Under the pieces are notes generated by a model. That model saw only the letters and a program-made list of their open reading frames with translations, was not told the DNA's origin and made no database searches. Positions 1 through 63,381 of a stretch of DNA of 64,000 nucleotides are shown here, one piece after another; position 1 is the stretch's first letter; each line of letters begins with the position of its first letter. Made by a program: the position numbers and the translations under genes. The stretch lies in assembly GCA_013239625.1 (NCBI GenBank), contig MU053588.1, forward strand, positions 3,128,799 through 3,192,798, read 5' to 3'. This DNA is from Lama guanicoe (taxonomy: Eukaryota).

Positions 1-340
1 TTTTACTTTACTCACAGGTTAGACTGAAATCAGAGAGGCAAAATGACTTACTTTAAGTAAAGCAGCCACTAAAAGGCAGACACCTAGGTCTTCCTCCTCA
101 CTTTTGGGTCTCTCTAATGATACCCTCATGCCTCTTCCAGATCTGCCACCAAATTCTTGCCCATACAGGTCAGGCAAAACAACCTAGAAACCCTGGTGCT
201 CATAGAACTGGATATGGTGACTGTTTTTGTTGACCCTTTGCCACACCCACTGCAGTATGAGAAAGAGGCGAGGAAGATGCCAAGTGAAGCCCCGCCCTCA
301 AACATATTAACCCTCCTAAGCAGCAACCCTTTTATTTCAG

Positions 341-2743
341 ATTGGTTCCTGAGAACCTCTGAAAGAAAACTCACAACAGTGCCCTGGCTGCCAGTGCCCC
401 TGTGATCATTTCAAGGGCAGGGTAAAGAAAACCAGTAAGTTGCAAAAGAATGACCTTCCTTAAACTTGGTCACTCTGTGGAATCAACTAGGGATGAAGCA
501 GGTGTTGAAGAGACAAGAGAGATGAAGTGGAGACCAGGATAAGCACACACCTTAGCCTTTTCTACTCAATGTCACCTTGTAAGGAAATAGAAAGAGCAAA
601 ATATAATTCTCTTAAGACTAGAGAGGTTTAGCAAAATTCTTTAATGATAGAATGCCATTGCTTATCAAAGTGGACAGAGACAGGGTTGTGGAGACCTGGT
701 CATTGATCTCTGACAATTACACCAGTGTTGATGTCAAATAGAACTTGATTCATCCCTAGTCTAACTGTTTAAATGTCATAGAAAAAGTAACCTGGCAAAT
801 GTTAAACTGATTGATACTATGATATTATCAAGAATAAAATAAATCACTGTTGATGGAAGTAAAATACAATTTAGTAGTAATTATCAAAAACTTAAATGTG
901 TGTTCCTTTTAACTAGTAATCTGGATGCTTTAAGATCTCTACTATAGAATACTAGCATGGATACTCAAAGATATATGTACAAGAATACTAATTATAGTAG
1001 TATTTGTATTGACAAAGAAATGAAAATTTTAAATGTTCATCATTAACAGACTGACTGTGTGATCATTTCACAATGTATAAAATACCAAATTGTTACGTTA
1101 TGCACCTGAAACTAATATAATGTTATATGTCAATTATACTTCAGTTTAAAAATTTCATCATAAGCATATTGGGCAATTCTGCTGTTGTCAAAAATAATTA
1201 GATAGATAATTATGATTACTGATTGGAAAGATATCCACAATATACTAAGTGAAAAAAAGGTGCAGAGGCCCACACCCATTTCAAACACACCACAAAAATA
1301 AATTTCAGTGGATTAAAGCGACAAATTTGAAAGACAAATTTATAAGGGAATGCAGAAGAATATTCATACCTTGAGGTAGGAAAGAATTTCTTAAACAAGG
1401 TACAAAAAGTATGTCATAATGGAAAAAATTAATAAATCTGACTTCATTGAAATTAAGAAATTTGGCCACCAAGAAGATAAAATGACAATCTACAGAGGAG
1501 GGGTAATGTCTGCAACATATATAATCGACAAAGGGTTAATATTCAAACTATATAAGGAACTCCTATAGATCAATGAGAGGAAGGCAGGTAACACAACAAA
1601 TGGGCAAAAGACTTGAACAGGCGCTTCAGAGACAAGAAATCCAAATAGCTAATCAACATGTGAAATGGCACACAACCTTACTAGTAACTGGGAAAACATG
1701 AATTAAACCCAAACAGAGATCACTGTACATGATCAGATTGACAACAACTTTAATTAATGTGTGACAGTACCAAGTGTTGGCAGAGAGCAGAATAAAGAAA
1801 CTCTCATCTTCTGCTAATGGAAGCATAAAGTGGTAAATCACTTGGAAAAAGTGCTGGTGGTTTTCTACTAAAGTTTAAGCTCTGTGACCAAGCAATTCTA
1901 CTCTCAGATGTATACTCAAAAGGAATCCATGCTTATGTACACTGGGAGACATGTACAAGGGTTTCATAGCATTGTTCATAAGTACCCCAAACTGAAAAGT
2001 AGCCAATGAATAAGTAGGAGTATATTTGAATATTATATATCCATTGAGAATGAACAATAACAAAATAACATAAATGAATCTTACAAACATAATGTTGAGT
2101 AAAAGGGAAAAAAGAGAACAGTTATGGCATGATTTCATTTACATAAAGTTCAAAAAAATTAAACTATTTAGGAATGTATATACAGGTGGTAAAACTATAA
2201 AAAAAAAGTAAATGCTTACTATAAAAGTGGGGGACTATCACTGTGATGGGGAGAGAGAGGGCAGTGATCAGAAAGAGGAGGGTTGCTGGCAATATTCTAT
2301 TTCTAGACCTGGGTATTAGTTCCATGAATATTCTCTTTGTACCTATTTATTGAACTGCACACGTAAGTTTTATGAACTTCTGTAGACGTATAATATTGTG
2401 CAATAATTAAAGACTTTGTAAAAGTACAGAGAAAAACAACATTTATAGTATGAGCTCATTTTTGTTTTTAAACTATTATGTTTACATACAAAAAGGTATG
2501 GAGAATATACTATTATGTACAAAATAAATAAGCACGTAAGTTTTTCACTGTATGAGTCTTTTAACACTTTTAAAGCTCTTATAAAAATTAAATTTTAAAA
2601 ATGTTTTTAACAGTAGTCTCTCCCTTTTGTTTTCAACCTAGGACACCAGTGACACCACAAAAAGCCAAGCAAGCACTCCAGAGCCTGCCAGCAATCTCTC
2701 AGACAATGGATGTCAGCTGGCAAGCTTTGCTCTGCCTTTATAG
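341..2743 (+). pseudogene. CXCL17: CXCL17 (mucosal chemokine), last two coding exons (341-434, 2642-2743); reading frame disrupted; 5' exons lie outside the window
   Basis: Exon tttcag|ATTGG...AACCA|gtaagt translates (D)WFLRTSERKLTTVPWLP and, in a shifted frame, CPCDHFKGRVKKT. Exon cctag|GACAC... gives RHQ*HHKKPSKHSRACQQSLRQ/CQLASFALPL*. These match the recalled CXCL17 C-terminal half, and the position just upstream of LIPE is syntenic. Lesions: frameshift near 393 leading to TGA 403-405, in-frame TGA 2650-2652, 4-nt insertion 2707-2710. Confidence 0.88.
840..2420 (+). mobile_element. Old LINE-1 (L1M-type) ORF2 3' end and 3'UTR fragments in the last CXCL17 intron
   Basis: AT-rich with typical L1 motifs (aaatgggcaaaagacttgaacagg, cagcaattctactc-like, gcacctgaaactaatataatgttatatgtcaattata); no intact ORF; boundaries approximate. 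Confidence 0.7.
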
Positions 2744-3317
2744 GAGCTCTGAGAGCCCACCTTCCCAATGAAACATTCTCAGTCAACAAGGGAGTAAGCA
2801 CACCTTGAAGATGCCCTTCTCCCACCTCAAGCTCCTCATCCCTGTACCTACTCCCTAAAGCATTCTAGTGTTCTCCCAAAAAGCATTATTGCTAAAATTA
2901 TTGCTCCCTCTAGTGCCTTCTCCTGACAGTCTTTTCCTGTGCCCTCTACTTACCCAGGCTTAAGCTTAACTTACATGAAAGAAACCAGGAAGCCCAGGTT
3001 TCCTAGCTGGCACCACCTGACCTTAAATACAACCAGGCAAGTAGCAAACATAAGTCAATTAATATATTTAAATGTAATAGATCAAAATCATTTCTTTCAA
3101 TGGGGTCTGGAAATTCATGTTCAATCCAGTCAACTGCTTTTACCTGGTAAATTCCAAACTCAATCTAGATTCTATACACACCTCTCCCCATCACCAACCT
3201 CACTCTCTCTCCCCACTGCCCAACTTTTTATTTTTTTGTACATTCAACAAAACTTTCTGAGGTAAGAGCTAGGTGGGGTAAAGAAAGAAGTTAAGGCAGT
3301 AAATCAGACAATGTCTT

Positions 3318-3323
3318 ATTAAA
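3318..3323 (+). terminator. Candidate CXCL17 polyadenylation signal ATTAAA
   Basis: Variant hexamer about 575 nt after the ancestral TAG, followed by T-rich sequence and before the LIPE testis promoter. Confidence 0.45.
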
Positions 3324-3794
3324 GATAATATAGTTTTTTTAAAACGTGACAGTTTCCTAGTATGTAAAATGCTTCCAGTATTTATGATTAACATCATCAT
3401 CATCATCATTATTTGTCATCTGACTCAGTAAGTTTCCATTCTACTATACAACACATATATGCAGAAGCATAGTTCCAGGCTAGAGAGATGGTATGGAAGA
3501 TCTCAAATGCACTGAAAAGGGCTTCAAGCTGAAAAAAATGGGATGATGTGTTTTTTTTAACAAGAGAGTAAAATGATCAGAATGATAATATAAGGAAATT
3601 AAAGTGACAAACATTTGAAAGAATGAATAAAGAGGAAAACATAATGGTGTAGATCCTGCCTCCTCCTCTGACCTTTTCCTCAAACATCAGGACAGAAAAG
3701 AACAGGAACGCTCATCCAGAATCTGGCTTCTGTCACCCAGGTGAAATAGAGGGCTAAGTTGATTTGCTGACCTTATGAGAAGAAGCATTTTAAA

Positions 3795-3826
3795 TGAGTG
3801 GTGAGTTGGGTGGGGGTCCTATTTAT
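3795..3826 (+). promoter_or_regulatory. LIPE: LIPE testis (T1) core promoter: GT-rich element plus TATA-like TATTTAT
   Basis: tgagtggtgagttgggtgggggtcc followed by TATTTAT at 3820-3826, about 300 nt upstream of the T1 ATG. Confidence 0.55.
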
Positions 3827-4129
3827 GACACAACAGGGCATGCCCCTCCCTTCTGATAGGAGAGTGTGCTGGGCACATAGCCTCCTCCTATTCCCAATCC
3901 CTCCTCCCAAGGCAGGAGGCACAGAAGCATATCACTTAACACAAGAGTAGGGGGCCACTTGCCAACTGCCTTAAAAAGGAACACCAGGAATGCCAGGATG
4001 AAGCAGTGGAACTCAAAGGGAGGTGTCATCATGAGCAATCAGTGAGAGATCTATGACAAAGGAGGACTATAGGGGCCCAGAAGGATGAACCCTGGGAGAT
4101 CAGCATCTTCCTTGAGGGAAATAACATCA

Positions 4130-4958
4130 ATGGAGCCAGGTTCTAGGTCAGTATCTAGGCCCAGCTGGGAGCCTGAGCCACATCAGACACCTATCACCCA
4201 GCCAAAGTCTGGGTCAGAAAAGACACCCACAGCCCAGACAGCATCTGAGGCTCAGCAGGGACCCAATACACAAGAGGAGCCTGCTTCACAGCAAGGACCC
4301 ATCACTCAGCAGGAGCCCCTTGCCCAACATGAAGCTGAAGCCCAGCAGGAACCTCAAGACCAACAAAAAAGTGCTTTGCAGCAAGAATTTCTTGCCCCAC
4401 AGGAACCTGCAGCAGAGCAATCACCTCCCACACAAAGAGTGCCTTTCACAAAACAGGAAGCTGCCTCACAGCACCGACCTAGGCAAGGAAAAGAACCTAG
4501 AACTCAACAGGAGCCAGAATTGAGAAAGGGACCTGGAACCCAACCAGGACATGGGCTCAAAAATGAACTACCTGGCCAAACTGAACCTATGTCACAACAG
4601 AGATGGCAACAATCAGACCCTACAGCCCAGCACATAGCTCCAGCCCAGGGAGTCAAATCCCCAAAGGGATCTTTGGCCCAGTGGCATTTTCTATCAAAAC
4701 CAAAAGAACCATTCATACAGCAAATGGCCTCAGAGCAGAAGACACTTCTTGAATGGGTCACAGATTCAGGCACAGAATCAGATTTGAGGTCTTCCTTAGA
4801 GACTGATTCATCAGCCAAGAGGGATGGAACAGTAGCCCAGGGAATGAAGCTGGCCTTCAGGGGGAAACCTGGTTACGAGGTGATGTCAGGATTCGGTGGG
4901 ACGCCAGTACCCAGGAAGAAAACCAGCAGCCAGAACCCCAGACACTACCGGAACACAG
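4130..4958 (+). CDS. LIPE: LIPE testis-specific exon T1 (Q/P/E-rich N-terminal extension; with the common exons gives about 1048 aa)
   Basis: MEPGSRSVSRPSWEPEPHQ... matches the HSL testis-form N-terminus; donor ACAG|gtgagt at 4958; 829 nt, phase 1, joins the acceptor at 13908 in frame ([12 protein letters not shown]). An extra in-frame ATG lies at 4085. Confidence 0.9.
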
Positions 4959-5299
4959 GTGAGTTTAGCTTGCAGGAAGGGAGCCTCCCACGGATGGTCA
5001 TTCATTCCCTCAAGAAGAACTAAGACCTCCAGAATGTCAGGTTAGCTGAGGTCCTCTCTCAACAGTCCTGCCAGACACAGGTCAACAGCCCCATTTGATA
5101 GAGGAGGGAGCTGAGGCCTAGAAAAGAAGGATTTTGCCTGAGGCCGGGCAGTTAGGGCTGGCCAAGCCAGGATACTCAGCCAGGCTCTGACTCCTTCCCC
5201 TGCACTAGGCTGCCTCCCCCGCGGGAATCTGGGAGAAATCAAACAGAAGCTGTATGGGTCTCTGCGCGAGGGGCCAATACTCATTCCTGGGTCCCAGAA

Positions 5300-7250
5300 C
5301 TCTCTGAGCACCACTCTGGGATAGGCACTGGGTGGGCACCTGCACACCTTGCTGAACGTAGACGCTTACCCTCGGGCAGTTCCCACGCGGGGCAGGCCGA
5401 AAATCGGGCAGGAGCGACCTTTGAGCTCTCTGGGTTGCCCAGTGGGCAGGAAGACACTCGTTTCCCTGACAGCCTTCCCCTCAGCCGAGGGGGAGCTCCA
5501 GTCCCGCCAGGACCATGGCCTCCTGTTATCATCTCAGGAAGGGGGAGCTGGGAGAGGGCGGGGGCTCCGCCAATGTCCAGGCAAGGTCAGGGCCGCGTGC
5601 AGGAAAGAGTTGGGGAAGCGGTGTGAGCGGGTCGTGGGCCCAAGACTCCGCTGGCGCCAGCACTCCTGCCCCTCCTCTGAGGCCGGCAGTGATGGCCCCC
5701 GGGTCCAGCCTCAGGCCTTGAACTCCTCCTCGAGACTCAACGGTCCTGTTCTGCACACGGGGGGCACGCAAGTTCTATCCATGGAAGGTGGGTGACGGTG
5801 GTATAGCCTGAGGCGGGGAAAACAATGCTGCGCCAATCCAGAAACTGAGGCGCTGAGAGGCCAGCTAATCCAAAGACTGGTAATGCAGGTCTCAGCCCAG
5901 AGGCCTGCCGGAAGGGCTAGGACGGAGGAGAGCGTCGTTTGTGTCTCAGTGCTAGGGCTGGTCATGTGCTTAGGAGGGCGGAGAGGAGGGGCGGGGTGGG
6001 AAGAGAGGATTCCAGATCTGCTATTTCCGGCCTTGACGGTGTACAGCTGTTTCTCTAGGCCTCCCGAACCCAGTCTCAAGGGACGCCCTCACCGCAGCGC
6101 CGCCACAGCCAAAGCCGCCTCTCCCCAAGCTCCCAGATTCAGTTGAGTGTGTGCGCATGCGCGAGCCTCGAGCCTTGCGCATCCTGTTTCCCGCCTTTAC
6201 CCAGGCAGTTCCCGCAGTTCCCGCGGCCACCTCTCCTCCCTGCTGACCTGTGAGAAGTTTGGCTCTAGTGCGCAGGCGCCAAGCGCGCTACAACACGCCC
6301 CCCCCAACCTTCCATTATTGCGGGGAGGAACAGGACAGAGAAAAGAACCCCAAGAAAGGGAACAATAAGAGAACTAGAAGATAAGGCAGGGAGGAAAAGC
6401 GGGGCTACGTTCTCCAACGGCTCGTTAGCAGAGCCACGCCTCCTGACCTGCCGCTCTGCCCGATTTTAAATTGCTGGAGGACCTGGACCGCTCCCCGGCC
6501 CCGAGGCAGAGGCTAAGTGGCACCCCGCTCAACAACTCCTGCGGGCGGGCCGGATGCTTTCTTGACGATCCCTACTTGGGAAGGTGAGTGGGAAGACGAG
6601 GATGACAACCAACACGTGACAACCTTGGGGGGGATTCCTTGCTGGGGGACTTCTCGGGATTCCCCTTCTAGTTCGGCCCGCACACCGTTTTCGGCACCTC
6701 CAAGGCTGCATTTTGTTAGTCGCGGGCCCTTTAATGCGAGTGAGGGGGCGGGGCCATGCTGTAGGTCCTAGCTGCGGGCGCGGGGCTGGGCAGTGGAGCT
6801 TGGCCCGCCTTGCTCAGGGGGCGGGCCTCAGGAGTAAGTCTGGGATTGGGTGGCATGGGGGCCCGACACTGTTGCTTAGCGAGGATTGGCCCTCGGGGCG
6901 GGGACTGGCGGCTAGAATTGGCCCCGGGGCCGGGACCGCGGAAAATTGATGGAATCGGCCAGAGAAACGAGGCCCGCGGTGGCCGTTGGGGCCCCGGCCT
7001 CGAAGAAGGTTCAAGAGAGATCCAAAAGTCACAGGCACCGGCGGTGGCGAAAAGGCAAAACCAAAGGTGAGAGAGTAGGGGCTGACAGTAGCCCGGAAGG
7101 AACCCTAGACATCCCATGGGAAACTGAGGGACAGAGTGGACTGATCCTGTGCCAAGAGAAGCGAGAAACCGGTGGACTGGCTCCTTGCCGCCCTGCGAGG
7201 GGGAAAGGGGTTACAGGGATAATCCATTGTGAAAAAGGGGTGATGTGAGA
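5300..7250. promoter_or_regulatory. CpG island / alternative LIPE promoter region (exon A)
   Basis: High CpG density; NRF1-like TGCGCATGCGC 6152-6162; GC boxes near 6745 and 6895; inverted CCAAT (GATTGG) near 6844 and 6884. Confidence 0.8.
6949..7066 (+). CDS. LIPE: LIPE alternative coding first exon A (46-aa extension; about 811-aa isoform)
   Basis: ATG 6949 reads MESARETRPAVAVGAPASKKVQERSKSHRHRRWRKGKTK; donor AAAG|gtgaga; 118 nt, phase 1, in frame with exon 1; resembles the recalled rodent exon-A peptide (...RRRWRKGKIKAS...). Confidence 0.82.
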
Positions 7251-10200
7251 GGGAAATGCCCCCAGCAGATAAACTATTGGACGCCCCAGTGTTGTATTGG
7301 GAGGAGAATCCAGAATGTGAGTATCCAGGGCCAGGATTTGTGCTTTTCCGCCGTATTCACTCTGTGGCCCTGAGCAGCTCTTGCCTCGTGTTTTCAACAT
7401 GGGAAATGGTTGAAGCGCCGATTTTCAGGTCTCTGGCACTCTTGAGACAGTAATGGGGAAGAGGTTTAGAAGCTGCTTTCCAAACAGAAATTGTAGGGGT
7501 GAGTTAGGGGGAGCTAGGAGGAAGGAGTGCCCCACAGTAGGGAATGCCCGGACCAGAGAAGGGGTGCAGTACAGCTCAAAACATTCCTGTCCCACCATCC
7601 CTCATTCAGTATGTTCACGCATTCATTGTCAGTCCACCTCCTTCAGCCTGGCCTCCTAATTTCCTGACACCTACTACTAGGACTACTCCTTGGACAGCCT
7701 AACCATGGCTTGGGAGAAGGGAGGCTGTCACCTGGGTTCCCTAGGGCGTCACATTTACAGATCTCAGCAGGCTGGAGAAACACTGACAGACCAACAGAGA
7801 TGCTGCAAGCCTCAGGCAGAGGCATACACTAACTCCTTGATGGATTAGGAGAATATGTCAGTCCAAGCAAGAACCCTGTAGGAAGTTCCTGTGCAGGAAA
7901 GAAACTGACCCAGCTCCTGGGCTGAGAGACCCCAAACTCATCATCCTCCCAGCCACAAACTTTATCATTAGCCAAGGATAGAACTGGAGTTGGCTCCAGA
8001 TACACACACTCAGGCTCAGACAGGCTCAGAGGTCATACTGGGGCCTGAGGGCATTCCCTGTCACACGGCAAGACACAGCCTCACAAACAGGATGGGGTAC
8101 CAGAGTACCCTTGGTCAAGAAATGGGCCTTCGAGACCTGGTTCCTCTGGCTATAAGGAGTGGTACACTGAACAATAGGCTCCCTCCTTCCCTGCCTCAAC
8201 TTTCTGAGCTATAAAATGGGCATAATGATAGGCATGCCTATCACTAGACCACTGTGAGGTTTCGATGAGTGTAGTAGTGTTTGGCGCTGTCACACAGCAA
8301 GCCCTCAAGAGGGGTGGAGGTTATCATTACTGTTACTCCCAACTAGACAGTGAGTTCCCTGAGATCAGGGCTGTGTCTGCTTTGTTAACCCTACAACCGT
8401 ACAGCCAGGTATGCCAGGCATATATTTATTCAATTAATCAGTGCAGGAATGCATGGACTGCAATGTGGGGATAAGAATAATCGTGTTGCCTTTAGGCTTG
8501 CTGTGAGGAGTTAGAATCCTCTTGGCTAGGGGTCCCTGCATGGACTGAGCCAGTCCTACTCACAAACCCATGGGCCTACCTACTCACAAAGGCTCAATCC
8601 CCCAAGATCCTAGATTCTCCTGTCATTTCCTGAGGCCCTACCCTGGTACAGGCCTCTGTTGAGTGAATCAGACCCCTCCCCTGCCCCAGGGGCATCTAGG
8701 CTGGCTGGAGCAATCCTACTCATCAGTTTCATCTTGCCAGTAACAGATGACACTACTGTTACTATGATCACCCCATTTCGCAGATGACGACACTGAGGTT
8801 CTCAGGGACTGAGCGCACTTAGGCTTTCTTACCTGACCAGTGAGGGCAGGGAGGTAGCCACCCCCAGCCTCCTGAAGGCAGGAAGTGTGTGAGACCAAAA
8901 CTGCTGTGTGCTCCAACCTTGATTCTGGACCCGAAATTCTCCAGTCACACAGATTCATTCAGTAGACATTCAACAAACCCATACCCGTGCCAGGCTGGAC
9001 TCTCATCGGTGAGGACAGACTCATGTCTGAGCTGGGGATACAGACATTAATAAATATCCCACAAATCAGATATAATTATCTGACTATCTGAGTTTTCTCA
9101 TCTGCCAAACTGTGTTGAAGAGAGAATCCTGGTAAAATATAAGAGGTAGGCTTCCCAAGGAGGTGACATTGGACCCAAAGATGAGCTAGGGTTGACTGTG
9201 GAGCAAAAGGGACACCATGGGCAGAGAGGCCAGCCCAGGCAGAACCGTGAGGCCCAAGGAAGTGGTACCTTACAGCATGGAGGAAGCTGAGCGGGAGGGG
9301 GTAGGGAAGAACCCACAGAGGGCCAAGACGGGACCTGGTTTGCAGGGCCATGTCCAGGATTTGGGGCTTTATCCTGAGAGCAAGAGAGTATTGAAGGGTT
9401 GGGAGTGTGTGGCCAGATTTAAGTTTTAGAAAGATCCTCTGGCTGCTATGTGGAAAAGCCATGGAGGGGGCAAAAGCAGACACACAGCAACAGTCGGTAC
9501 TATCATCTAGAGGAGGGAGCAATGGAGGTGGGAGAAGGGCGAGGTCCCAGTGCTTTCTATGGGGTAGGGGGAACAGGATTTCCTGATGGATTGGATGGGA
9601 GTAGGAGGTGGCCAGGATGATGCCCTGGGTTCCGGCTGGAGCAAATGGGAAGTGATGGGTACCATACACACATGCACACACACACATGCGGGCACACAGA
9701 GACAAGATATATATCCATATACATACAAACATGCCCACACAATCTCACAGGCCAAGAGAAATAGAGATACAGAAACACTCACAGGTTGAGAAACACACAT
9801 AAGCAGTGACACTTGTATGCAAACATGCCTACAAACATACTGAGAAACATAAAAACACAGAGACTGAGAAAAAATGTGGACACCCACAAACCCAGGCTGG
9901 GACCAACGCTAGGCATGACAGATACCTTCATGCGAACGTACATCCACGTGAACCTCAAAGACACACTCACACCTGCCCACTCAGAAAGCCCAGAGCTGAT
10001 ACATGACAGGGAGAAGGAGCAACACCGATACACACAGAAACACAGCAGAGAAGCTGCACCATCCTTGCTGGCTTGGTGACCCTGAGCGGTATGTCATCTC
10101 TCCACATCTCAGTTTTTTCATCTGCCAAAAGGGGTGACAATGGCCCCCACCTCACAGGTTATGGGGAGGATGAAACGAGTTACCTCACACAAAGCTCAGG

Positions 10201-12318
10201 GAGAGAGCAGTGCCTGGCACACAGTGGTCTTAGAGCAGCTTTTGCTTTTTCATGCAGACACACTCAGGGACTGGGCCACAGTCACTGCCCCCTCGCCTGC
10301 ATCTGCCTCCAGGCCTCTCCCCTTCTAAAGGCTTTGCCCCTTCTAGGCCCCAGACCTGGCCCTTCCTCCATTCTCCCCCCTCTTCCTTCCCTACCTCCGT
10401 TCTCTCCCCTGCTTAGTCCCCAGGGACCAAAATCCAGGCCAGGTCCACTTGTCCTGTGACTCTTTAGGGCAAAGGGCTGGTACCCAGGCGGCAGGACCCT
10501 CAGCCCTCCCTCTGCCCCAGTCCTCGCTAGAGGCCCTCGTGGCCTGTCCCTGCCCCAGTGCCCTCTGCCTCGGATTCTTGGCAAGTTTCTGGCAACCTCA
10601 ACATCCTATCCTCCCCACTTCACCCAGCCAAGCCCTCAAGGGAGAAGTCTGGAACAGGGCAAAGGGCAGCACCTGGGATCCAGCCTCTTTCCCACTGCTT
10701 TGTGCAGGTCTCTTGTTCTGTCCAGGTCTCCTGTGCCCTCATCTTCAATAAAGAGCCCTACCCCATAGACAGGAAATAAATGACAGCTGCTTTACAAAAT
10801 GGGAAACCGAAGCCATGCAAAAAATACCAGGCTGGCCTAGGCACATACAAGGGCCTGATCTAGTGTGAGACCCAGAAAGCAAACAGTGCAAATGGTAAAT
10901 TATATATTATAGTATGTTACATGGAAAAATGACCCAACACATCTCTCAGTGGGGCTAAGTGAGAACCACAAAGCAAACCATAGGCAGAAATGCCTCTGTG
11001 GGGTCCTACTTACAAAGATCATTTCCAGCCCTCAGTGGACAGGATGGCCAAGTACCGTTTCCAGATGTGGAAACCAAGCTCGTTGAGGATCACCTGGTGA
11101 GTGGCTTAGGCCATTGTTCTGTTGTCACAGCCACCAAGCTTAGCGCTGCCTCCAGAGGCCTCTGTCTATCCATCTGTCTGTCGGTCCTGGGGTGATCCTC
11201 TCCCAAACTCCCATCCAGCCCCTCTTGCCTCTACTCTGACTCTTCACTTTCCTTCCTTCTTCAAAGATTTGCTAGGCCCCATGATGGATGCTGGGGCCAC
11301 CCCATACCCCCATGGGGATAACATCTGAGGCGGAGCCACAGAGGAGGATTCACCTACAGCCAAGCAAATGACACCGAGGCCTAAGGACCTCTCATTGCAC
11401 AGGCCCCTTCCAAGACCCTATACCTAATTTTGGACTTGTGATTTTCTATTCTTTTTCCAAAAGAGCCCAACCTCCACTTGTAAAAGCTTCACAGCTCCAT
11501 GATGCCTGGTTCTGCCCCAAGGGAGAGATAAACCTTGTTACAAACATATAAACAAACAAATGGAAAATTGCAAATATGTAAAATTCTAGGCAGAAGAACA
11601 ACTTTCATATGATGGCAGAAAGCAGCGGTGGGGGTGGGGCGCATCTTAGATGAGAAGGAGCAGTTATACAATGCCTCCTGGAGGAGATAAGAAACTTAGT
11701 CCTGAAGGGTGAGAAAGAGCTGGCCAAGCAAGGAGCACGTGGAATAAATAACAAAGGTGAAGTGTCTCTGAGCTTTGGTTTCCCATATGTGAGGTGAGGA
11801 TGACAGTCACACACGGCAGGATGGGCTGGAAGGTTAAGTGGCAGGTACAGGGTGCCGGGTGTGGAAACACCACACAGTAGGTCCTGTGGCTCAGGCCCCT
11901 CGCTGAGCTTGGCACTGCCCTTAATCGGCTTTTGTCCTCCTGGGAGGGACAGGCAGGGCTGACTCCCCCCTCCTCTCCCCCTAACAGCTGGGGCTGGCTG
12001 TGCCATGGCAAGCCTGGGGGCGGGAGCTGAGATCACGGGGTTTTTGCTCCCTGAAACCACCCTGGGGAGAAGGAGGGCAGCCAGGCTGGGCAAGAGGGCA
12101 CACTTTGTTCAAGACCAGGGTGAGACTCCTGGGTCCAAGGGAAGAGGGGACAGGGAGACCGGATGCCTCAGTTTCTAACTGTTGAGGGGACTAGGGGTCT
12201 GGACTCCTGGAACTGAGGGAGGACGGTCTTGGGGGCCAAAACTCCAGAGTTCAAAGGCAGAGGAGGCTGGGACAATGACGGAGCAGGCGGAGGGGGCAGT
12301 GAGTTGGGCCGCATGCTC

Positions 12319-12476
12319 TGTTTACAGCACGTGGTTCTCTCTGTCCTTTCTGGGTGGGAGGAGGAGCTGGTGGCCACACCCTGGGCTGGCTGGGCCCCTC
12401 CCTAGGGTTATGGACCCAGGCTGCAACTGGCACTAGCCACAATCCTCAGTCCCAGCTCTGAAGAGGCCTGGGGTGG
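12319..12476 (+). promoter_or_regulatory. LIPE: LIPE adipocyte promoter and non-coding exon B
   Basis: TGTTTAC 12319-12325, E-box CACGTG 12328-12333, GT-box near 12352, donor GG|gtgagt at 12476/12477; about 1.4 kb upstream of exon 1, as known for exon B. Confidence 0.65.
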
Positions 12477-13429
12477 GTGAGTTCACGGCTAGCTGACAGA
12501 CAGGAATAGCCACTGCCAAGCTCCAGGGCCTGGAATAAGAGACACTTTTTTCTGAAGGATCAGGGGACCATTGACTTGGGAGCCTAGCAAGGGGCTGGGT
12601 GGGCTTCAGAGGGGAAACAGAGGGCAACACCCCCACCGAAGTAGCAAGAACAGCTTGTGCAGAACTTGGTGGTGACAGGACAGGGATCCCGGAGGGAAGA
12701 TCACCAGGGACCCTGAAGTGTGGGGAGTCAGTTCTGGTCCAGGGCAACTTTTTAAAGGCCAGAGCTAGAGGCCTAGCCTCCAGGGCCCTGGAACAAGACC
12801 AGCAAAAGTAACAGCTCTGGACCCAGAGATCTGGGTCTGACTTCTGCTCTGCCGCTTTTAATGCAACCTTCAGCTCCTTACTTAACACCTCTCGGCCTCA
12901 GTTTTCCTCTCTTGAGTAATAGGAATGCTCCTAATAATAGATGAATCATGAACCGAAGCAGTCTGGGTCTCAGAGGGTTAGTGAGGACTAAATGAGCAAA
13001 CGCACAGAAAGCTCTTAGCATATGGTCTACCGCAGAGCGAGCTCAAGGTTAACAGCAGGGAGGAATATCATTTCTAGGCAAGGAGCTGGTCCTTGCAAGC
13101 TAAGCCAAGTAGATAGGCCTGAAGGCCAGGGAACCCAGCTGGGGGAAGAGTGGGACTGAGTTTAGGAGCACCCACAGAGGAAGAGGGAAGGAGTTGGAAG
13201 GGATTCCACAGCTAAACTGGAGGGACTGGGAAGGGGCAGGAGTGACTCCTCACTTATAGTAAGGCTAGAATTATGAACTCCTGGGTTCAGTAAGAAAACC
13301 GGGCTTGGGACCAGGGACCTGGAACGCCACCCAGTGAATGGGAATGGGTGGGTTGAGGGTTGAACTCTCCCAAATACTGCAGAGGGCAAGGGCCTGTGGG
13401 CAACATCTGGGGCCTGAGAAGGAGGTGAG

Positions 13430-13850
13430 ATGGGGGCCTGATCTCCTGGTCCTAAGAGAAGGGACCATCTGGGGATCCAGACTGCTCAGAACCTAGGAGT
13501 TCAGAGCTCAGAAAAATAAATGGAGACAGATGCCTGAACTTGGGTCCCTGGAAGGAGAAACAGGGCTACATAGACTCCTGGGCTGTAGGATAGATGCTGG
13601 AGCAAGGGAACAGGGACTCCTAGAGCCTAAAGAAGAGGGTTCTGGGGCCTGGACTCCTGGGTCAGGAGGGCGAGGTTTGAGGGATCAAACTCAGCTCTTG
13701 AGGGAGAAAGAGTCCAGGTACCTGGATTCGTGGGTCCCAAGGAAGGAATAGGCTTAGGCCAGAGACTCCATCCTTGGGTCTGAAGGAGGAGACTGTGGTC
13801 TGATGTGTGGGTCTGAGGGAGGAGGAGGGTAGAGCTTGGACCCCAGGGCC
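13430..13850. repeat. MSR1-like degenerate minisatellite array just upstream of LIPE exon 1
   Basis: Repeated GGACTCCTGGGTC(T/C)GAGGGAGGAGG-type units. Confidence 0.65.
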
Positions 13851-13927
13851 CAGCTGAGCAAGGGGTGATCCAGCCCTGCCTTAATGTGCCTCCCGACCTG
13901 CCTGCAGCCTCGCGGCTCACACACAGC

Positions 13928-16900
13928 ATGGACCTGCGCACAATGACACAGTCACTGGTGACCCTGGCAGAGGACAACATGGCCTTCTTCTCCAGCCAAG
14001 GCCCTGGGGAGACAGCACGGCGGCTGTCAGGCGTCTTTGCGGGTGTTCGGGAACAAGCACTGGGGCTGGAGCCGGCCCTGGGCCGCCTGCTGAGCGTGGC
14101 ACACCTCTTTGACCTGGACGCAGAGACGCCGGCCAATGGGTACCGCAGCCTGGTACACACGGCCCGCTGCTGCCTGGTGCACCTGCTGCACAAATCACGC
14201 TACGTGGCCTCCAACCGCCGCAGCATCTTCTTCCGCGCCAGCCACAACCTGGCCGAGCTCGAGGCCTACCTGGCTGCTCTCACCCAGCTCCGTGCTCTGG
14301 CCTACTACGCCCAGCACCTGCTGGCCACCAACCGGCCCGGGAGGCTCTTCTTTGAGGGCGACGAGGGGGTCACAGCCGACTTCCTGCGTGAGTACGTCAC
14401 TCTGCACAAGGGCTGTTTCTACGGCCGCTGTCTGGGCTTCCAGGTGAGCCCCCTGCCCTGTCCCTCTGGGCCCACAGTGAAGGCACCTGGTGGGCCCCAA
14501 CCTGACCCAATAGTATAGTAGAGTAATTACTATGGTCTGTGTTACTGTATTCAGCAAACAGATGCAGGAAGGGGAAGCTGTCGGGACTCAGACAGCACTT
14601 GCACAGAGGGTCTCAAATTTGTGGCCCCTTGGCCAAACCCACCATGCAGAGAGGAATCTTTAACTTGCATAGCTTCTTGCACCGGCATCCTCACTGCTCT
14701 CTATAGTCGTAAACTCAGGAGATTCATTCATTCTTCTATGTGACCTGTGTCTAGCCCTTGAATTCATTTGAGAACCTCTAGGAGGACAGCCAGTATTGTT
14801 TTGTTCTTAAGGCCTGTTTGTAAGAACATGCCCCATTTAGTCATCCCCACAGAAGGCCTGGCAGGCAGAGAAGAAGGGTGCTAGCCCCATTTTACAGAGG
14901 TTTAAGGGGAGGGGGCACCTGGCTGCTCACCTGGACCCAGGCCAGCCTGGGCAAATCAATTCAACTAAAGTATTGCAGAATTCAGACTTTCAGGCTGAGG
15001 GAGAGCCAGGGAACATATCCAAGTTAGTGACAGGGAGGAAGACGTGGTTGTGGCCCCTCTCCTCCATGAACCAGGGCCCTGACCCCCAGCTGCAGGCCTT
15101 CTCTCCTCTGCCCACCCCAGACCACCCTCAGGGAGACACAGCTCAGATCAGCACTGAGAAGAGGCCTTCAGACTCACAGGAAAAGTAGTTTGAGGACCCA
15201 GAGAATTTGGGGGCCCTTGGGGCACCCGGCTCAGAGCCAAGGTTCACCTTGCCCCTGTCTGGGGTCAGTGTTGGGTCCACCAGACGCCAGACACATCTGG
15301 GAACCGCAGCAGGAGCATCTGGAGCTGTGTGACCCTATATCCCTTCAGGCCCTCTCTGGGCCTCTGCCCACCTCAGTGACACCTGAGCTGGGCAGTCTCT
15401 CAGACTCCATCCCACCTCAATTTTCTCTGCTTTCTTGCGGAGCAGTCTGTCCTCACCAACCCAGCCTGTGTGTTCCTGGGAACTTCCCTTCACCTAAGCT
15501 GAATCCACAAATATTGATCAGCTGAGCTGGGCCAGCCTGCTCCTCCCTGCGTTCTGGCCGTGCCTTGGAAGCTCAAGAGTGAGATCCTGGGGCCACCCAA
15601 GCCAGCATGCCAGCCCCAAGGGCCAGCACCACTGTGCTCTCTGGCCCACTGGGCCCCCGGCCAGGGGCAGGGCCATGCCTGACAGCTATTCTCTGAGGGC
15701 CCAGCTATGCCATGTTGCAGGACAGCCTCCCCCCGTAAAATGTCAGCCCCAGAGGACAGAGGCTTCTGTCTAGGTCTTGCTCAGCTCCTGCTCCAACCCA
15801 GTGCCTAGCCTGCAGTAGGACCTAGGCCAGTATTTGTTGAACAGAAGAACCCCGCTGGCCCCTTGCCCAGCCTCCTGTGGCTTTTTTTCTCTGATCTGGT
15901 CTCACTATTGTCTTTTCTTAGCTGCCTGACTCCTCTCTCAGATGCTGGGTCTCCCCACCATTTGACTATCTTTCTGCCTCAAGATCTCTGGCCCTGTCTC
16001 CGACCATCCCATTTCTGTTTTCCTACCACCCCTTAATTGGCCCCCACTTCCTGCCTCACCTCATCTCTGTCCTCGCTGAGTGTCAGGAACCCCTGCATCA
16101 TCCTTCTCCCAGCTCACACCCTCTGTGACTCCATCCACATCTAGAATAAATCCAAATCCTCAGGCCTCACATGAGCCCCTTTGCTTCTCTGACCTCACCC
16201 TTTGCCCCTCTCCGCTGGCTCACTCTGCTCCAGCCATGCGTCATCCACACCGAGCACAGACCCACCTCAGAGCCTTTGCAGGTGTTGTGCCCTCTACAGG
16301 GAACAGCCTTCCCTCCCTTCATTCCGATCCCTCCTAAAGCTCCCCCGGAGAACCATGTCATCACTCTGTCCCCTCCATCTACCATCTTTTCAAACATTCA
16401 TCATTCCTTGACATTACATGGCACGTCTTTATTTGAGTATTGTCTGTCTTTTTGACATCAGCTCGATGAAGGTGCCTAAAACAGTGCCTGGCACACAGTG
16501 GGAATTCACTAATCGTTTGCTGAAGGACCACATCTCCCCCCCAACCTCATGCCGCTGCCCCTCACTCCTGCCTGCTGCCCCTGGTCCCTGACTTGGCGGC
16601 ATCTCTCCACAGTTCACACCCGCCATCCGGCCATTCCTGCAGACCATCTCCATCGGGCTGGTGTCCTTCGGGGAGCACTACAAACGCAATGAAACGGGCC
16701 TCGGTGAGTCCCTGCAGGGCCCTGCCAGCAGCCTCCCCTCCTCTCCTGCCCCTACTCTGCACCACTGCCCCAGCAAGGCTGCCAGGAGCTCCCTGACACC
16801 CTTCTTGATCCTTAGGTGTGACAGCCAGCTCCCTCTTCACCAGCGGCCGCTTTGCCATTGACCCAGAGCTGCGTGGGGCTGAGTTTGAGCGGATCATACA

Positions 16901-19900
16901 GAACCTGGATGTGCACTTCTGGAAAGCCTTCTGGAATATCACTGAGATCGAGGTGCTATCGGTGAGCGTGGAGTGCATTGAGGGCTCCAACCTGGTACAA
17001 GATGGGGATACTGAGGCCCAGAGACACATCTCAGGCCTCTGCAGTGTTCCAGGCCCAGGGACAGCACAGGAGGGAAAAGACTGGAGTTCCGAGGGATGGC
17101 ATGAGGGGAACCCCTGCCAGCAGCTCCTCCCAGCACCCTTTCTGTTCCCTCCCACCAGTCTCTAGCAAACATGGCATCAGCCACCGTGAGGGTAAGCCGC
17201 CTGCTCAGCCTGCCCCCCAAGGCCTTTGAAATGCCGCTGACTGCTGACCCCAAGCTCATGGTCACCATCTCACCCCCACTGGCCCACACAGGCCCCGGGC
17301 CCGTCCTCGTCAGGCTCATCTCCTATGACCTGCGTGAAGGACAGGTAGGGCCCCTGCCCCAGCCAGAACAAGTACAGAGCTGAGGGCATGGAGGCACCTT
17401 CCCCACATGTCCGCCTGCCTCACTGCTCACACCTGCCCCGCTTCCTGTGTGTCTGCCGCCCGCACCTCACCCACCTCCTCCTTCCTCATCCCCAGGACAG
17501 TGAGGAGCTCAGCAGCCTGGTGAGGTCCGAGGGCCCCAGGAGCCTGGAGCTGCGGCCACGCCCCCAGCAAGCACCCCGCTCAAGGTCCCTGGTAGTGCAC
17601 ATCCACGGCGGCGGCTTCGTGGCCCAGACCTCCAAATCCCATGAGCCTTACCTCAAGAGCTGGGCCCAGGAGCTGGGGACTCCCATCCTCTCCATCGACT
17701 ACTCCCTGGCCCCCGAGGCCCCCTTCCCCCGTGCGCTGGAGGAGTGCTTCTACGCCTACTGCTGGGCCGTCAAGCACTGTGCCCTCCTCGGTGAGCCCAC
17801 ACCCCTCACTGCTACCTGCTCCCTGGTCCTACCCCAGCCTGCTTCAGCCGCCACCCTGTCGTGTAGGAGGAACGAGCCAACTAGTTGCTCAAGCCTCAGG
17901 CCTGCACAGCCTGCCTCCCCTTCCATTTCCTAACACCGAGCCCTCTGCTACACGTTCACCCCTGCTTGTCCCCCACCCACACCTCCATCCTGCCTCCATC
18001 CTTCCTCCATGCTGCCCACAGTGCCCCAGTGCTCCCCCCTTCCATCTCAACCAGTTCTTCCTCCTGCCTCCTGCTCCCCGACTCCAGCCCTGACACTCCA
18101 TCCCCCGACCTCCCCATGTCCTCTGACCTTTTCTTCCCTCCTCCCGTTTCTCTACCCACTGTTGTCCTGCACTGCCAGCCACCTGGCCTTGCTCCAGCCT
18201 TTTCTTCCAGCCTCTCTGACTTCCCTCTTCCAACATTTTGGGAGGCACAGAGCAGGATGAGGCCATGCCTCAGGGCACAGAGCACGTGGCCCTTCCATTG
18301 CTGTCAGCCTGAACCCTGGCTTCCATCTTCTGGCCTCAATGCTTCTCCCTCCTGAAATGGGCCCTTGGCCTCCCCTCCCCTGCCTCCCATCCTCCTTGCT
18401 TCTGATCTCCAGCCTCCCAAGCTTCCCCAGAGCTTCCTGATCTCCAGGGCTCTCAATGTCCTAAGCCTGCCCAATCCTCTGACCACTAAACCTCAAATGG
18501 GTCCAAATCTCTGCCTCAGTTTACCAGTCTTTAAAATTGCAGTTGGCTAGACCCTGGGATTGGGCCCCTCACACCCAACCTCTGAGAACCCAGTGCTTCT
18601 GATGCAAAGCTCCAGTTCCTCCCTGCCAGGCTTGACCGAGCCCCCATCCAAACCAGGCTCAACAGGTGAGCGGATATGCCTCGCAGGAGACAGTGCTGGC
18701 GGAAACCTCTGCTTCACTGTGTCCCTTCGGGCAGCCGCCTATGGAGTACGGGTCCCAGATGGCATCATGGCAGCCTACCCAGCCACAATGCTGCAGTCTG
18801 CCGCCTCTCCCTCCCGCCTCCTAAGCCTCATGGACCCCCTGCTGCCCCTCAGCGTGCTCTCCAAGTGTGTCAGCGCCTATGCTGGTTAGTCCCACACCCA
18901 CAAACCTGGGGGCGTGGGGGTGCTTGGATGCCTGGGTCTTTCGGGGACAAGGGCTAGAGACCAGTGGTCTCCTTGAGTATGAAGGAGTCATCTTCTTGTT
19001 CCTACTGAAGCAATCAGAGGTCCTTAGGTCCCTGGGGACACAGATGCCTAAGGTTCTGGATGTTGAGACTGGACCCAGAAAGGGAAAAGACCAACTCAGC
19101 CCCCCACATACACTGACAGGTGGGGAGACAGAGGACCACTCCGACTCAGACCAGAAGGCACTGGGCATGATGGGGCTGGTGCGGCGGGACACAGCCCTGC
19201 TCTTCCGAGACCTCCGCCTGGGCGCCTCTTCATGGCTTAACTCCTTCCTGGAGCTGAGCGGGCACAAGTCCCACCCAAACTCGGTGCCCGTGGCAGGTGA
19301 GTGAAGCCCTTTCCTCACACGCCCATCCGCGGTGACCAGGAGGGGCAGCCTGATACCTCAAAAGCCCTGGGGAAAGAGAAGCGCTGGGCCCTGGAACCTC
19401 AGGGAAGCAGAGAGCACCCTCTTGGCTTTGCCCCATATCTGTTCCAGGTCCCTACCACAAAGCCCTGATTTTCCACAATAAGCCACATCCTAGACATTCT
19501 AGGACTTCTGGTCCCCTGGGTCAGCTCAGAATCCCAGGAACTATAAGATTCAGCTTTCCAAACAGCCTCTCCCAGAAAGGCACCCTGGGAAGTGACTCAG
19601 GGCCTACCACATGTCCTGATTTTCAGTCTCAATAATGCCATTAAAACCTTTGGTCCCTCAGATGGGAGCCCAGCCCTCCCATATTCTTCCCACACTTTTA
19701 ACTGAGGAAATGGGAAATAACTCCTGCAGGGGCTGGCCTAGGAGCCTAGGATGGGAGCTCAGAAGACTGGACAGACCCCAGAAGTGGAGGAGATTCCCAG
19801 CCCTGAGTGAGAGGGAGAACCCTCAGGCAGCCAATCATCACTTTCTATCCGGGGATCTATTTTTATCCCCACTGTTTTCTAATATTTTAAGGATTTTTAA

Positions 19901-39279: not shown

Positions 39280-63381
<24,102 letters not shown>

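What the first reader, a model, noticed from the sequence alone, without database searches (positions are those of the whole stretch)
341..2743. CXCL17 appears to be a unitary pseudogene: three independent lesions in its last two exons
Seen: the penultimate exon is 94 nt and reads CTG CCA|GTG CCC CTG TGA, so the CPCDHF motif is out of frame and TGA 403-405 follows. The last exon has an in-frame TGA at 2650-2652 (RHQ*) and an extra TGGA at 2707-2710 that shifts the terminal CQLASFALPL. Splice sites are intact. Recalled: human has a 102-nt exon with LPKKQCPC, implying an 8-nt deletion (AAGAAGCA) between CA microhomologies. CXCL17 is a mucosal chemoattractant reported as the GPR25 ligand, acting through its C-terminus. 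Inference: three separate lesions are unlikely to be base-call errors, so this lineage (probably camelid) has lost CXCL17. I do not know whether this has been reported.
Basis: partly seen in the sequence, partly recalled or inferred. Interest (0 to 1): 0.85.

Follow-up and report, generated by a model that had tools for sequence, protein, structure and literature searches.

The report
Duplicate dead copy of CXCL17
The broken CXCL17 exons are real, but they belong to a decayed spare copy made by a tandem duplication; an intact CXCL17 gene lies about 47 kb upstream in the same camelid genome, so the chemokine has not been lost.

Summary
A fourth lesion, +2 nt in exon 2, lies about 290-370 nt before the window.

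The same contig carries a second four-exon CXCL17 46.7 kb upstream. Its spliced translation is 100% identical to the 119-aa NCBI alpaca CXCL17. Intact CXCL17 is also annotated in Camelus.

The two copies sit in a large tandem segmental duplication. That duplication also copied a CEACAM-like Ig exon and the 5' two-thirds of LIPE. The window copy lies next to the only complete LIPE, and the live copy next to a LIPE relic.

Divergence is mosaic: K80 0.18 in the background and 0.04 around exons 2-3. Two 100%-identical blocks look like assembly patches.

The verdict is an ordinary unprocessed duplicated pseudogene, not a unitary loss.

The parts
341..434 (+). Pseudogene exon 3 (penultimate) of the window's CXCL17 copy ('copy B'). 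It is 94 nt against 102 nt in the live copy. The 8-nt deletion junction lies between 393 and 394. TGA at 350-352 is the stop met when reading from the ATG. TGA at 403-405 is the stop in the exon-local frame.
   Evidence: Pfam CXCL17 PF15211 E 1.2e-4 on the CPCDHF half, below the curated cut-off
435..2641 (+). Retained intron 3 of copy B (GT at 435-436, AG at 2640-2641). It is collinear with the intron of the live copy at 77-88% identity.
2642..2743 (+). Coding part of pseudogene exon 4 (last) of copy B, 102 nt against 98 nt. It has TGA at 2650-2652 where the live copy has AGA. The 4 extra nt are placed ambiguously within 2705-2710. The TAG at 2741-2743 ends the shifted CQLASFALPL frame.
   Evidence: Pfam CXCL17 PF15211 E 1.5e-4
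1..20584 (+). The part of the downstream unit ('B unit') of the tandem segmental duplication that lies in the window. It is collinear with contig C1236 3081976-3090795, except that the upstream unit lacks the counterpart of window 6404-18655.
4130..22417 (+). LIPE (hormone-sensitive lipase), the only complete copy in the genome. Ten tblastn pieces cover residues 1-1048 of a Camelus LIPE isoform X1 with no stops. HSL_N is at 13817-14515 and Abhydrolase_3 at 17349-17930.
4973..6122 (+). A 1150-bp block that is 100.0% identical to the upstream unit (C1236 3087175-3088324), embedded in 77-88% identical sequence. Three tiny leftover contigs duplicate parts of it. It is probably an assembly patch.

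Best explanation
The window's CXCL17 exons are the 3' half of an unprocessed (intron-containing) duplicated pseudogene, called copy B here.

A tandem segmental duplication several tens of kb long copied three things: the 3' part of a CEACAM-like region, the whole four-exon CXCL17 gene, and the 5' two-thirds of LIPE. The upstream unit kept a working CXCL17 (copy A, the gene annotated in alpaca). Its LIPE was truncated at the duplication breakpoint and has since decayed. The downstream unit kept the complete LIPE, and its redundant CXCL17 accumulated disabling lesions under relaxed constraint.

Copy B has five lesions: +2 nt in exon 2, -8 nt in exon 3, two in-frame stops and +4 nt in exon 4. It cannot make a secreted protein that ends in the receptor-activating C-terminus.

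Later gene conversion probably homogenised about 2.8 kb around exons 2-3.

Shown: the lesions, the intact paralogue, the collinear duplication and the state of LIPE. Inferred: the order of events, the conversion, the age, and that copy A is expressed and functional.
For: 1. Second copy. Window 300-480 matches two places in the 2.05-Gb assembly: itself, and C1236:3082369-3082557 at 90% identity and 8 nt longer (alignment). The last exon likewise has exactly two places, and the second lacks the TGA and the 4-nt insertion.
2. Copy A is intact. Its exons are 79/81/102/98 nt, all with AG/GT. Spliced, they translate to a 119-aa protein 100% identical to P0005, 'C-X-C motif chemokine 17 [Vicugna pacos]'. 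Camelus proteins differ at one residue.
3. Copy B keeps all four exons and its introns. Its exons are 79/83/94/102 nt, all with AG/GT, but no frame is open from the ATG to the C-terminus.
4. Collinear paralogous blocks run from about 3013354/3096492 to 3090795/3149382. The end of unit A abuts the start of unit B.
5. LIPE. The complete gene is only in the window, covering 1048 of 1048 residues with 0 stops. All 4 HSL_N matches in the genome lie there. The A side holds only pieces matching residues 1-277 (13 stops) and 695-818.
6. Divergence. K80 is 0.18 over 7756 background sites, which is far too high for haplotypes. It is 0.037 over 2274 sites around exons 2-3.
7. Constraint. pN/pS between A and B is 0.81 over 88 codons. 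B has replacements at sites conserved in the 26 named orthologues aligned, such as F to S in QQFL.
8. Independent presence. 14 DNA runs under 5 organism codes and 7 studies hold 94-97% of the sampled words of window 200-2800. Four of these may be the source sample.
Against: - The exact lesions therefore rest on this one assembly plus k-mer shares, which do not say which words were missing.
- Exon 1 of copy B lies in a 4001-bp block that is 100% identical to copy A and 99.875% identical to a separate 4001-bp contig. That looks like an assembly patch, so whether copy B really has this exon 1 is uncertain.
- Expression of either copy was not tested. Three RNA runs hold 27-44% of the stretch's words, but which part they hold is unknown.
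- The identity of the blocks ranges from 75% to 97%. A single-event history with later conversion is therefore an inference, and a multi-step history is not excluded.
Confidence: 0.9

Rival explanations
1. Unitary pseudogene: camelids have lost CXCL17 altogether.
For: The window copy is the one that sits directly upstream of the complete LIPE. That is the conserved position of CXCL17 according to passages of preprint 10.64898/2026.05.18.725876. It carries four or more disabling lesions.
Against: An intact four-exon copy lies 46.7 kb upstream and is identical to the annotated alpaca protein. Intact CXCL17 is on record for three Camelus species.
Confidence: 0.02
2. Assembly artefact: the broken copy, or its lesions, do not exist in the animal. 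It would be a misplaced or error-ridden contig, a collapsed or expanded duplication, or indel errors.
For: - The assembly does contain suspicious patches. There are 100%-identical blocks of exactly 4001 bp and 1150 bp between the two units, mirrored by leftover small contigs.
- There are N runs nearby.
- No reads could be laid.
Against: - Outside the patches the units differ by 4-25% over more than 10 kb, including about 750 transitions and 480 transversions. This is not what sequencing error or allelic variation gives.
- 14 DNA runs from 7 studies hold 94-97% of the sampled words of the stretch.
- The lesions are of three kinds (substitution, deletion, insertion) and lie in non-homopolymer context.
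Confidence: 0.04
3. Copy B is not simply dead. It is transcribed and acts as a regulatory RNA, as a donor or acceptor in ongoing gene conversion with the live gene, or as the source of a short signal-peptide-bearing product.
For: - Splice sites are all canonical.
- There is a low-divergence tract around exons 2-3 (K80 0.037 against 0.18), consistent with sequence exchange between the copies.
Against: - The RNA share could be intron or read-through signal of neighbouring LIPE transcripts, or DNA carry-over.
- From the ATG the frame stops after 57 codons, of which only 37 match CXCL17.
- pN/pS is near 1.
Confidence: 0.04

Closest known systems
Unprocessed (duplicated) pseudogenes in tandem segmental duplications of mammalian immune and chemokine loci
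   Same: Copy B keeps the full exon-intron structure and canonical splice sites. It lies in the same orientation, tens of kb from an intact paralogue, inside a collinear duplicated block. It carries frameshifts and stops, and pN/pS is near 1.
   Different: Nothing unusual in kind. One particular is that the decayed copy is the one next to the intact syntenic neighbour LIPE, while the live copy sits next to a truncated LIPE relic. Another is that divergence along the duplication is strongly mosaic.
CXCL17 gene relics of birds (bioRxiv 10.64898/2026.05.18.725876 and 10.64898/2026.10.14.759250; abstracts and passages seen)
   Same: A decayed CXCL17 next to LIPE that still encodes a recognisable C-terminal fragment.
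   Different: In birds the relic is reported as the only copy, that is, lineage loss with GPR25 retained. Here a fully intact paralogue exists, so the ligand is not lost.
Functional mammalian CXCL17 (Pfam PF15211; GPR25 agonist, bioRxiv 10.1101/2024.09.21.614233, abstract seen)
   Same: Four exons, adjacency to LIPE, and recognisable signal peptide, CPC motif and C-terminal segments.
   Different: Copy B has no open frame joining the signal peptide to the C-terminus. [quoted passage not shown]

Membership tests
CXCL17 gene family (PF15211) | Sequence homology to CXCL17 | tested here: met
   Pieces of copy B hit PF15211 at E 1.2e-4 and 1.5e-4. Each is below the 27-bit cut-off because the pieces are 22-31 aa. 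The exons are 87-90% identical in DNA to copy A, which encodes the annotated alpaca CXCL17.
CXCL17 gene family (PF15211) | Four-exon structure next to LIPE (criteria quoted in 10.64898/2026.05.18.725876) | tested here: met
   There are four exons with AG/GT. LIPE starts 1.4 kb downstream of the last exon. Exon 1 of copy B lies in a suspect assembly patch.
CXCL17 gene family (PF15211) | Open reading frame from the signal peptide to the C-terminal Xaa-Pro-Yaa end (a functional member) | tested here: not met
   From the ATG the frame ends at TGA, window 350-352. Further lesions are TGA at 2650-2652 and +4 nt.
Unitary pseudogene | Disabling lesions in a gene at the position of the functional orthologue of other species | tested here: met
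   Lesions. Position next to the intact LIPE.
Unitary pseudogene | No functional copy or paralogue of the gene in the same genome | tested here: not met
   An intact copy A lies 46.7 kb upstream and is 100% identical to P0005.
Duplicated (unprocessed) pseudogene | Introns retained and collinear with a parent or paralogue, including flanking non-coding DNA | tested here: met
   Collinear blocks run through introns and flanks.
Duplicated (unprocessed) pseudogene | Loss of coding capacity with relaxed constraint | tested here: met
   There are five disabling features. pN/pS is 0.81 over 88 codons, with small numbers: 13.5 nonsynonymous and 4.5 synonymous differences.
Processed pseudogene (retrocopy) | Intronless, poly(A) tail, dispersed location | tested here: not met
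   Introns are present and the copy lies in a tandem unit.

The most novel reading that the evidence does not exclude
The CXCL17-LIPE duplication may be old. Background K80 of 0.18 suggests an age of tens of millions of years, possibly before the split of Old World and New World camelids or even deeper in artiodactyls. On this reading the dead copy has been kept partly in step with the live gene by repeated gene conversion around exons 2-3. The pseudogene would then act as a sequence reservoir for the live gene, or as a hazard to it through transfer of lesions. It may also be transcribed in reproductive tissue.
Probability: 0.15. Interest if true: 0.35.

Novelty: new member of a known kind. 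Interest (0 to 1): 0.15.

Why it matters
Loss of CXCL17 in a whole mammalian family would have been a natural knockout of the CXCL17-GPR25 axis, and therefore interesting. That loss does not exist: camelids keep an intact CXCL17.

What remains is useful mainly as a caution.
- Gene-loss screens that look only at the syntenic slot next to LIPE would call a false loss in camelids.
- Read mapping, primers or expression counts for camelid CXCL17 must tell the two copies apart. They are 87-98% identical in the exons.
- This assembly carries patched, artificially identical blocks in the duplicated region.

Tried and rejected
- PDB sequence search with the last exon read through with X found no CXCL17 chain, only chance hits at E about 1.
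There is therefore no read-level check of the lesions, no splice junctions and no cross-species check.
- The search of earlier scan notes found nothing relevant.
- Literature searches: 'CXCL17'+'alpaca' gave 0 papers. 'CXCL17'+'camel' gave 29 papers, with 15 listed. The only CXCL17-centred one listed concerns an ostrich CXCL17 gene relic, as its title says; 'camel' occurs once in it, and that this is the ostrich's species name is my guess. 'CXCL17'+'pseudogene' gave 68 papers, with 20 listed, none on a CXCL17 pseudogene judging by titles and abstract starts. Two searches that did not force the term CXCL17 returned mostly irrelevant papers.
- Rejected, haplotig or allelic explanation: divergence is 4-25%.
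- Rejected, rescue by frame compensation: +2 and -8 do restore the frame, but a TGA lies in between and two more lesions follow.
- Rejected as a dating argument: the ancestral-looking H in CDHF of copy B. The site is a CpG (CGT in A, CAT in B) and flips recurrently in other mammals.
- Camelid-specific residues shared by A and B in exons 2-3 cannot date the duplication either, because they lie in the low-divergence tract, which was probably converted.

Full report
**Observation.** Window 341-434 is an exon-like segment of 94 nt with AG at 339-340 and GT at 435-436.
- Read from 343 it gives WFLRTSERKLTTVPWLPVPL and then TGA at 403-405.
- The CPCDHFKGRVKKT motif is in the frame that starts at 341.
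- The last coding exon is 2642-2743, with AG at 2640-2641. In the frame handed over from the previous exon it reads (R)HQ, then TGA at 2650-2652, then HHKKPSKHSRACQQSLRQ.
- The C-terminal CQLASFALPL and its stop are in the next frame.
- Pieces of both exons hit Pfam CXCL17 (PF15211) at E about 1e-4. They fall below the curated cut-off because the pieces are only 22-31 residues.

**A second copy.** The assembly that holds the window (2.05 Gb, 55231 contigs; window = contig C1236:3128799-3192798) was searched with window 300-480.
- Besides the window itself there is one more place, C1236:3082369-3082557. It is on the same strand, 90% identical and 8 nt longer.
- The alignment shows that the window copy lacks 8 nt exactly at the frame break.
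- The last exon also has exactly two places in the genome.
- The upstream one has AGA instead of TGA and lacks the 4 extra nt. Identity is 210 of 241 with one 4-nt gap.
- Exons 3 and 4 of the upstream copy are 102 and 98 nt and read through cleanly to ...CQLASFALPL-stop.

**The upstream copy is the annotated, intact gene.**
- A protein search with the upstream exon returned six CXCL17 proteins of cetartiodactyls.
- tblastn of the alpaca protein P0005 onto the fetched 150 kb located all four exons of both copies.
- Copy A has exons of 79/81/102/98 nt at C1236 3071465-3071543, 3081682-3081762, 3082410-3082511 and 3084812-3084909, all with AG/GT.
- Spliced, copy A translates into a 119-aa protein 100% identical to P0005, 'C-X-C motif chemokine 17 [Vicugna pacos]'.
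- The cluster of P0005 also holds an intact 119-aa CXCL17 named for Camelus dromedarius, C. bactrianus and C. ferus. It differs at one residue (R instead of K after KKT), and copy A has the alpaca state.

The genome is therefore a South American camelid, either alpaca or a very close relative.

**Anatomy of the window copy (copy B).** It also has four exons with AG/GT, of 79/83/94/102 nt.
- Exons 1 and 2 lie before the window, at window-relative positions -6741 to -6663 and -370 to -288.
- From the ATG the reading is 37 CXCL17 residues, then a shifted stretch that ends at TGA, window 350-352.
- The +2 and -8 together restore the frame at CPCDHF. The TGA at 2650-2652 and the +4 nt follow.
- No frame joins the signal peptide to the C-terminus.
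- Between A and B, exons 2-4 differ at 13.5 nonsynonymous and 4.5 synonymous positions over 88 ungapped codons, giving pN/pS of 0.81.
- Copy B has replacements at positions conserved in the 26 named mammalian CXCL17 proteins aligned, for example F to S in QQFL (the orthologues come from the 61 found).

**The duplication.**
- Self-comparison shows collinear blocks between C1236 3070592-3090795 and 3121184-3149382.
- Further upstream, 3013354-3037452 matches 3096492-3115586.
- The end of the upstream unit (about 3090795) abuts the start of the downstream unit, which lies between 3092518 and 3096492. This is the layout of a direct tandem duplication.
- The unit holds an Ig-domain exon of CEACAM type (Pfam Ig_3, I-set) at 3101044-3101430, then CXCL17, then the 5' part of LIPE.
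- Copy A's intron 1 has an extra L1 insertion, with RVT_1 and Exo_endo_phos hits on the minus strand at about 3077595-3080738.

**LIPE.**
- A Camelus LIPE isoform X1 (P0066, 1048 aa) maps onto the window as ten pieces that cover residues 1-1048 with no stop, at window 4130-22417.
- All four HSL_N matches in the genome lie there.
- Pfam found HSL_N and Abhydrolase_3 in 2 of 29 long ORFs tested.
- The upstream unit holds only relics: residues 1-277 with 13 stops, and 695-818.
- It lacks the exons for residues 277-695 and 823-1048.

So the LIPE of unit A was cut by the duplication breakpoint and decayed further. CXCL17 was duplicated whole, and the copy in unit B decayed. CXCL17 next to LIPE, with four exons, is the conserved arrangement according to passages of preprint 10.64898/2026.05.18.725876. 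The dead copy is therefore the one in the classical syntenic slot, which explains why a reader of this window saw only a broken gene.

**Mosaic divergence.**
- Over 7756 aligned background sites K80 is 0.18.
- Over 2274 sites around exons 2-3 of copy B (C1236 3126511-3129296) it is 0.037.
- 5151 sites are identical.
- With neutral rates of 1-2.2e-9 per site per year (recalled values, an assumption), the background gives roughly 40-90 My and the low tract 8-18 My.

I read the low tract as later gene conversion. This is an inference and no formal test was run. Because of it, the camelid-specific residues shared by A and B in exons 2-3 do not date the duplication. The H/R difference in CDHF/CDRF is a CpG site that flips in other mammals as well. 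In exon 4, which lies in the background zone, copy A has states shared by alpaca and Camelus (HHRSP) that copy B lacks (HHKKP). This suggests that the copies diverged before the split of Old World and New World camelids, but it is a weak argument.

**Assembly caveats.**
- The identical sites form two blocks of exactly 4001 bp and 1150 bp: C1236 3070592-3074592 = 3121184-3125184, and 3087175-3088324 = window 4973-6122.
- The first equals a separate contig of exactly 4001 bp (C55113) at 99.875%. It contains exon 1.
- Parts of the second are duplicated by three leftover contigs of 203-513 bp.
- Sharp-edged perfect identity inside 77-88% identical sequence, mirrored by leftover contigs, looks like the same filler sequence placed in both units.
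- Whether copy B really has the exon 1 shown is therefore open.
- An older alpaca protein model (P0065, 105 aa) lacks the signal-peptide exon.

**Independent presence.**
- 14 DNA runs under five organism codes and seven study codes hold 94-97% of the 258 sampled words of window 200-2800. Four of them may be the source sample.
- This supports the locus as real. It does not show the individual lesions.

**Literature.**
- GPR25 as a CXCL17 receptor, and the need for the conserved C-terminus: abstract of 10.1101/2024.09.21.614233.
- Loss of CXCL17 in birds with relics next to LIPE: abstracts and passages.
- No paper in the held library combines CXCL17 with alpaca.
- Of the 15 listed among 29 papers with 'CXCL17'+'camel', none is on CXCL17 in camelids judging by titles and abstract starts. 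The one CXCL17-centred paper among them is on an ostrich gene relic.
- I found no description of this pseudogene, but database annotation of the locus could not be consulted.

**Verdict.** The interpretation as a unitary loss is refuted by an intact paralogue. The feature is an ordinary unprocessed duplicated pseudogene in a tandem segmental duplication. It is of low general interest, and useful as a warning for gene-loss screens and for camelid CXCL17 assays.

Noticed in passing
window 4973-6122 (= C1236 3133771-3134920), and C1236 3121184-3125184 outside the window: Two blocks of exactly 1150 bp and 4001 bp are 100% identical between the two duplication units, although the sequence around them is only 77-88% identical. 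Separate leftover contigs duplicate them: C55113 (4001 bp), and C47138, C19570 and C14933. They are probably assembly patches rather than biology.
   Followed up: partly
window 4073-5020: A 316-aa open frame without any Pfam hit is the long N-terminal exon of hormone-sensitive lipase isoform X1. It is 96% identical to a Camelus entry, and only 51-58% identical to horse, deer and human entries. This is a fast-evolving, Q/P/E-rich segment.
   Followed up: partly
C1236 3086221-3089471 (outside the window, upstream unit): A LIPE relic sits beside the live CXCL17. The N-terminal exon has 13 in-frame stops. There are pieces for residues 695-818. The exons for residues 277-695 and 823-1048 are missing.
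   Followed up: yes
C1236 3101044-3101430 (outside the window): An immunoglobulin-domain exon (Pfam Ig_3, I-set; CEACAM-like) lies between the two CXCL17 copies, inside a 92-95.5% identical duplicated block. The neighbouring CEACAM-type gene is thus at least partly duplicated too.
   Followed up: no
C1236 about 3077595-3080738 (outside the window): An L1-type insertion (RVT_1 and endonuclease ORF fragments, minus strand) lies in intron 1 of the live CXCL17 copy and is absent from the pseudogene copy.
   Followed up: no
window 57630-57672: A run of 43 N (an assembly gap, or a withheld stretch) in the GC-rich downstream part of the window.
   Followed up: no
window 200-2800: RNA-seq runs labelled as reproductive-system samples hold 37-44% of the sampled words of this mostly intronic stretch. 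This may be transcription through the pseudogene, for instance from upstream LIPE promoters.
   Followed up: no
proteins P0023 and P0028 (Przewalski's horse); P0006 (hippo), P0033 (warthog), P0046 (rhinoceros): Several ungulates have entries named 'CXCL17-like', and Przewalski's horse has two distinct full-length forms. CXCL17 duplication may be recurrent in ungulates.
   Followed up: no
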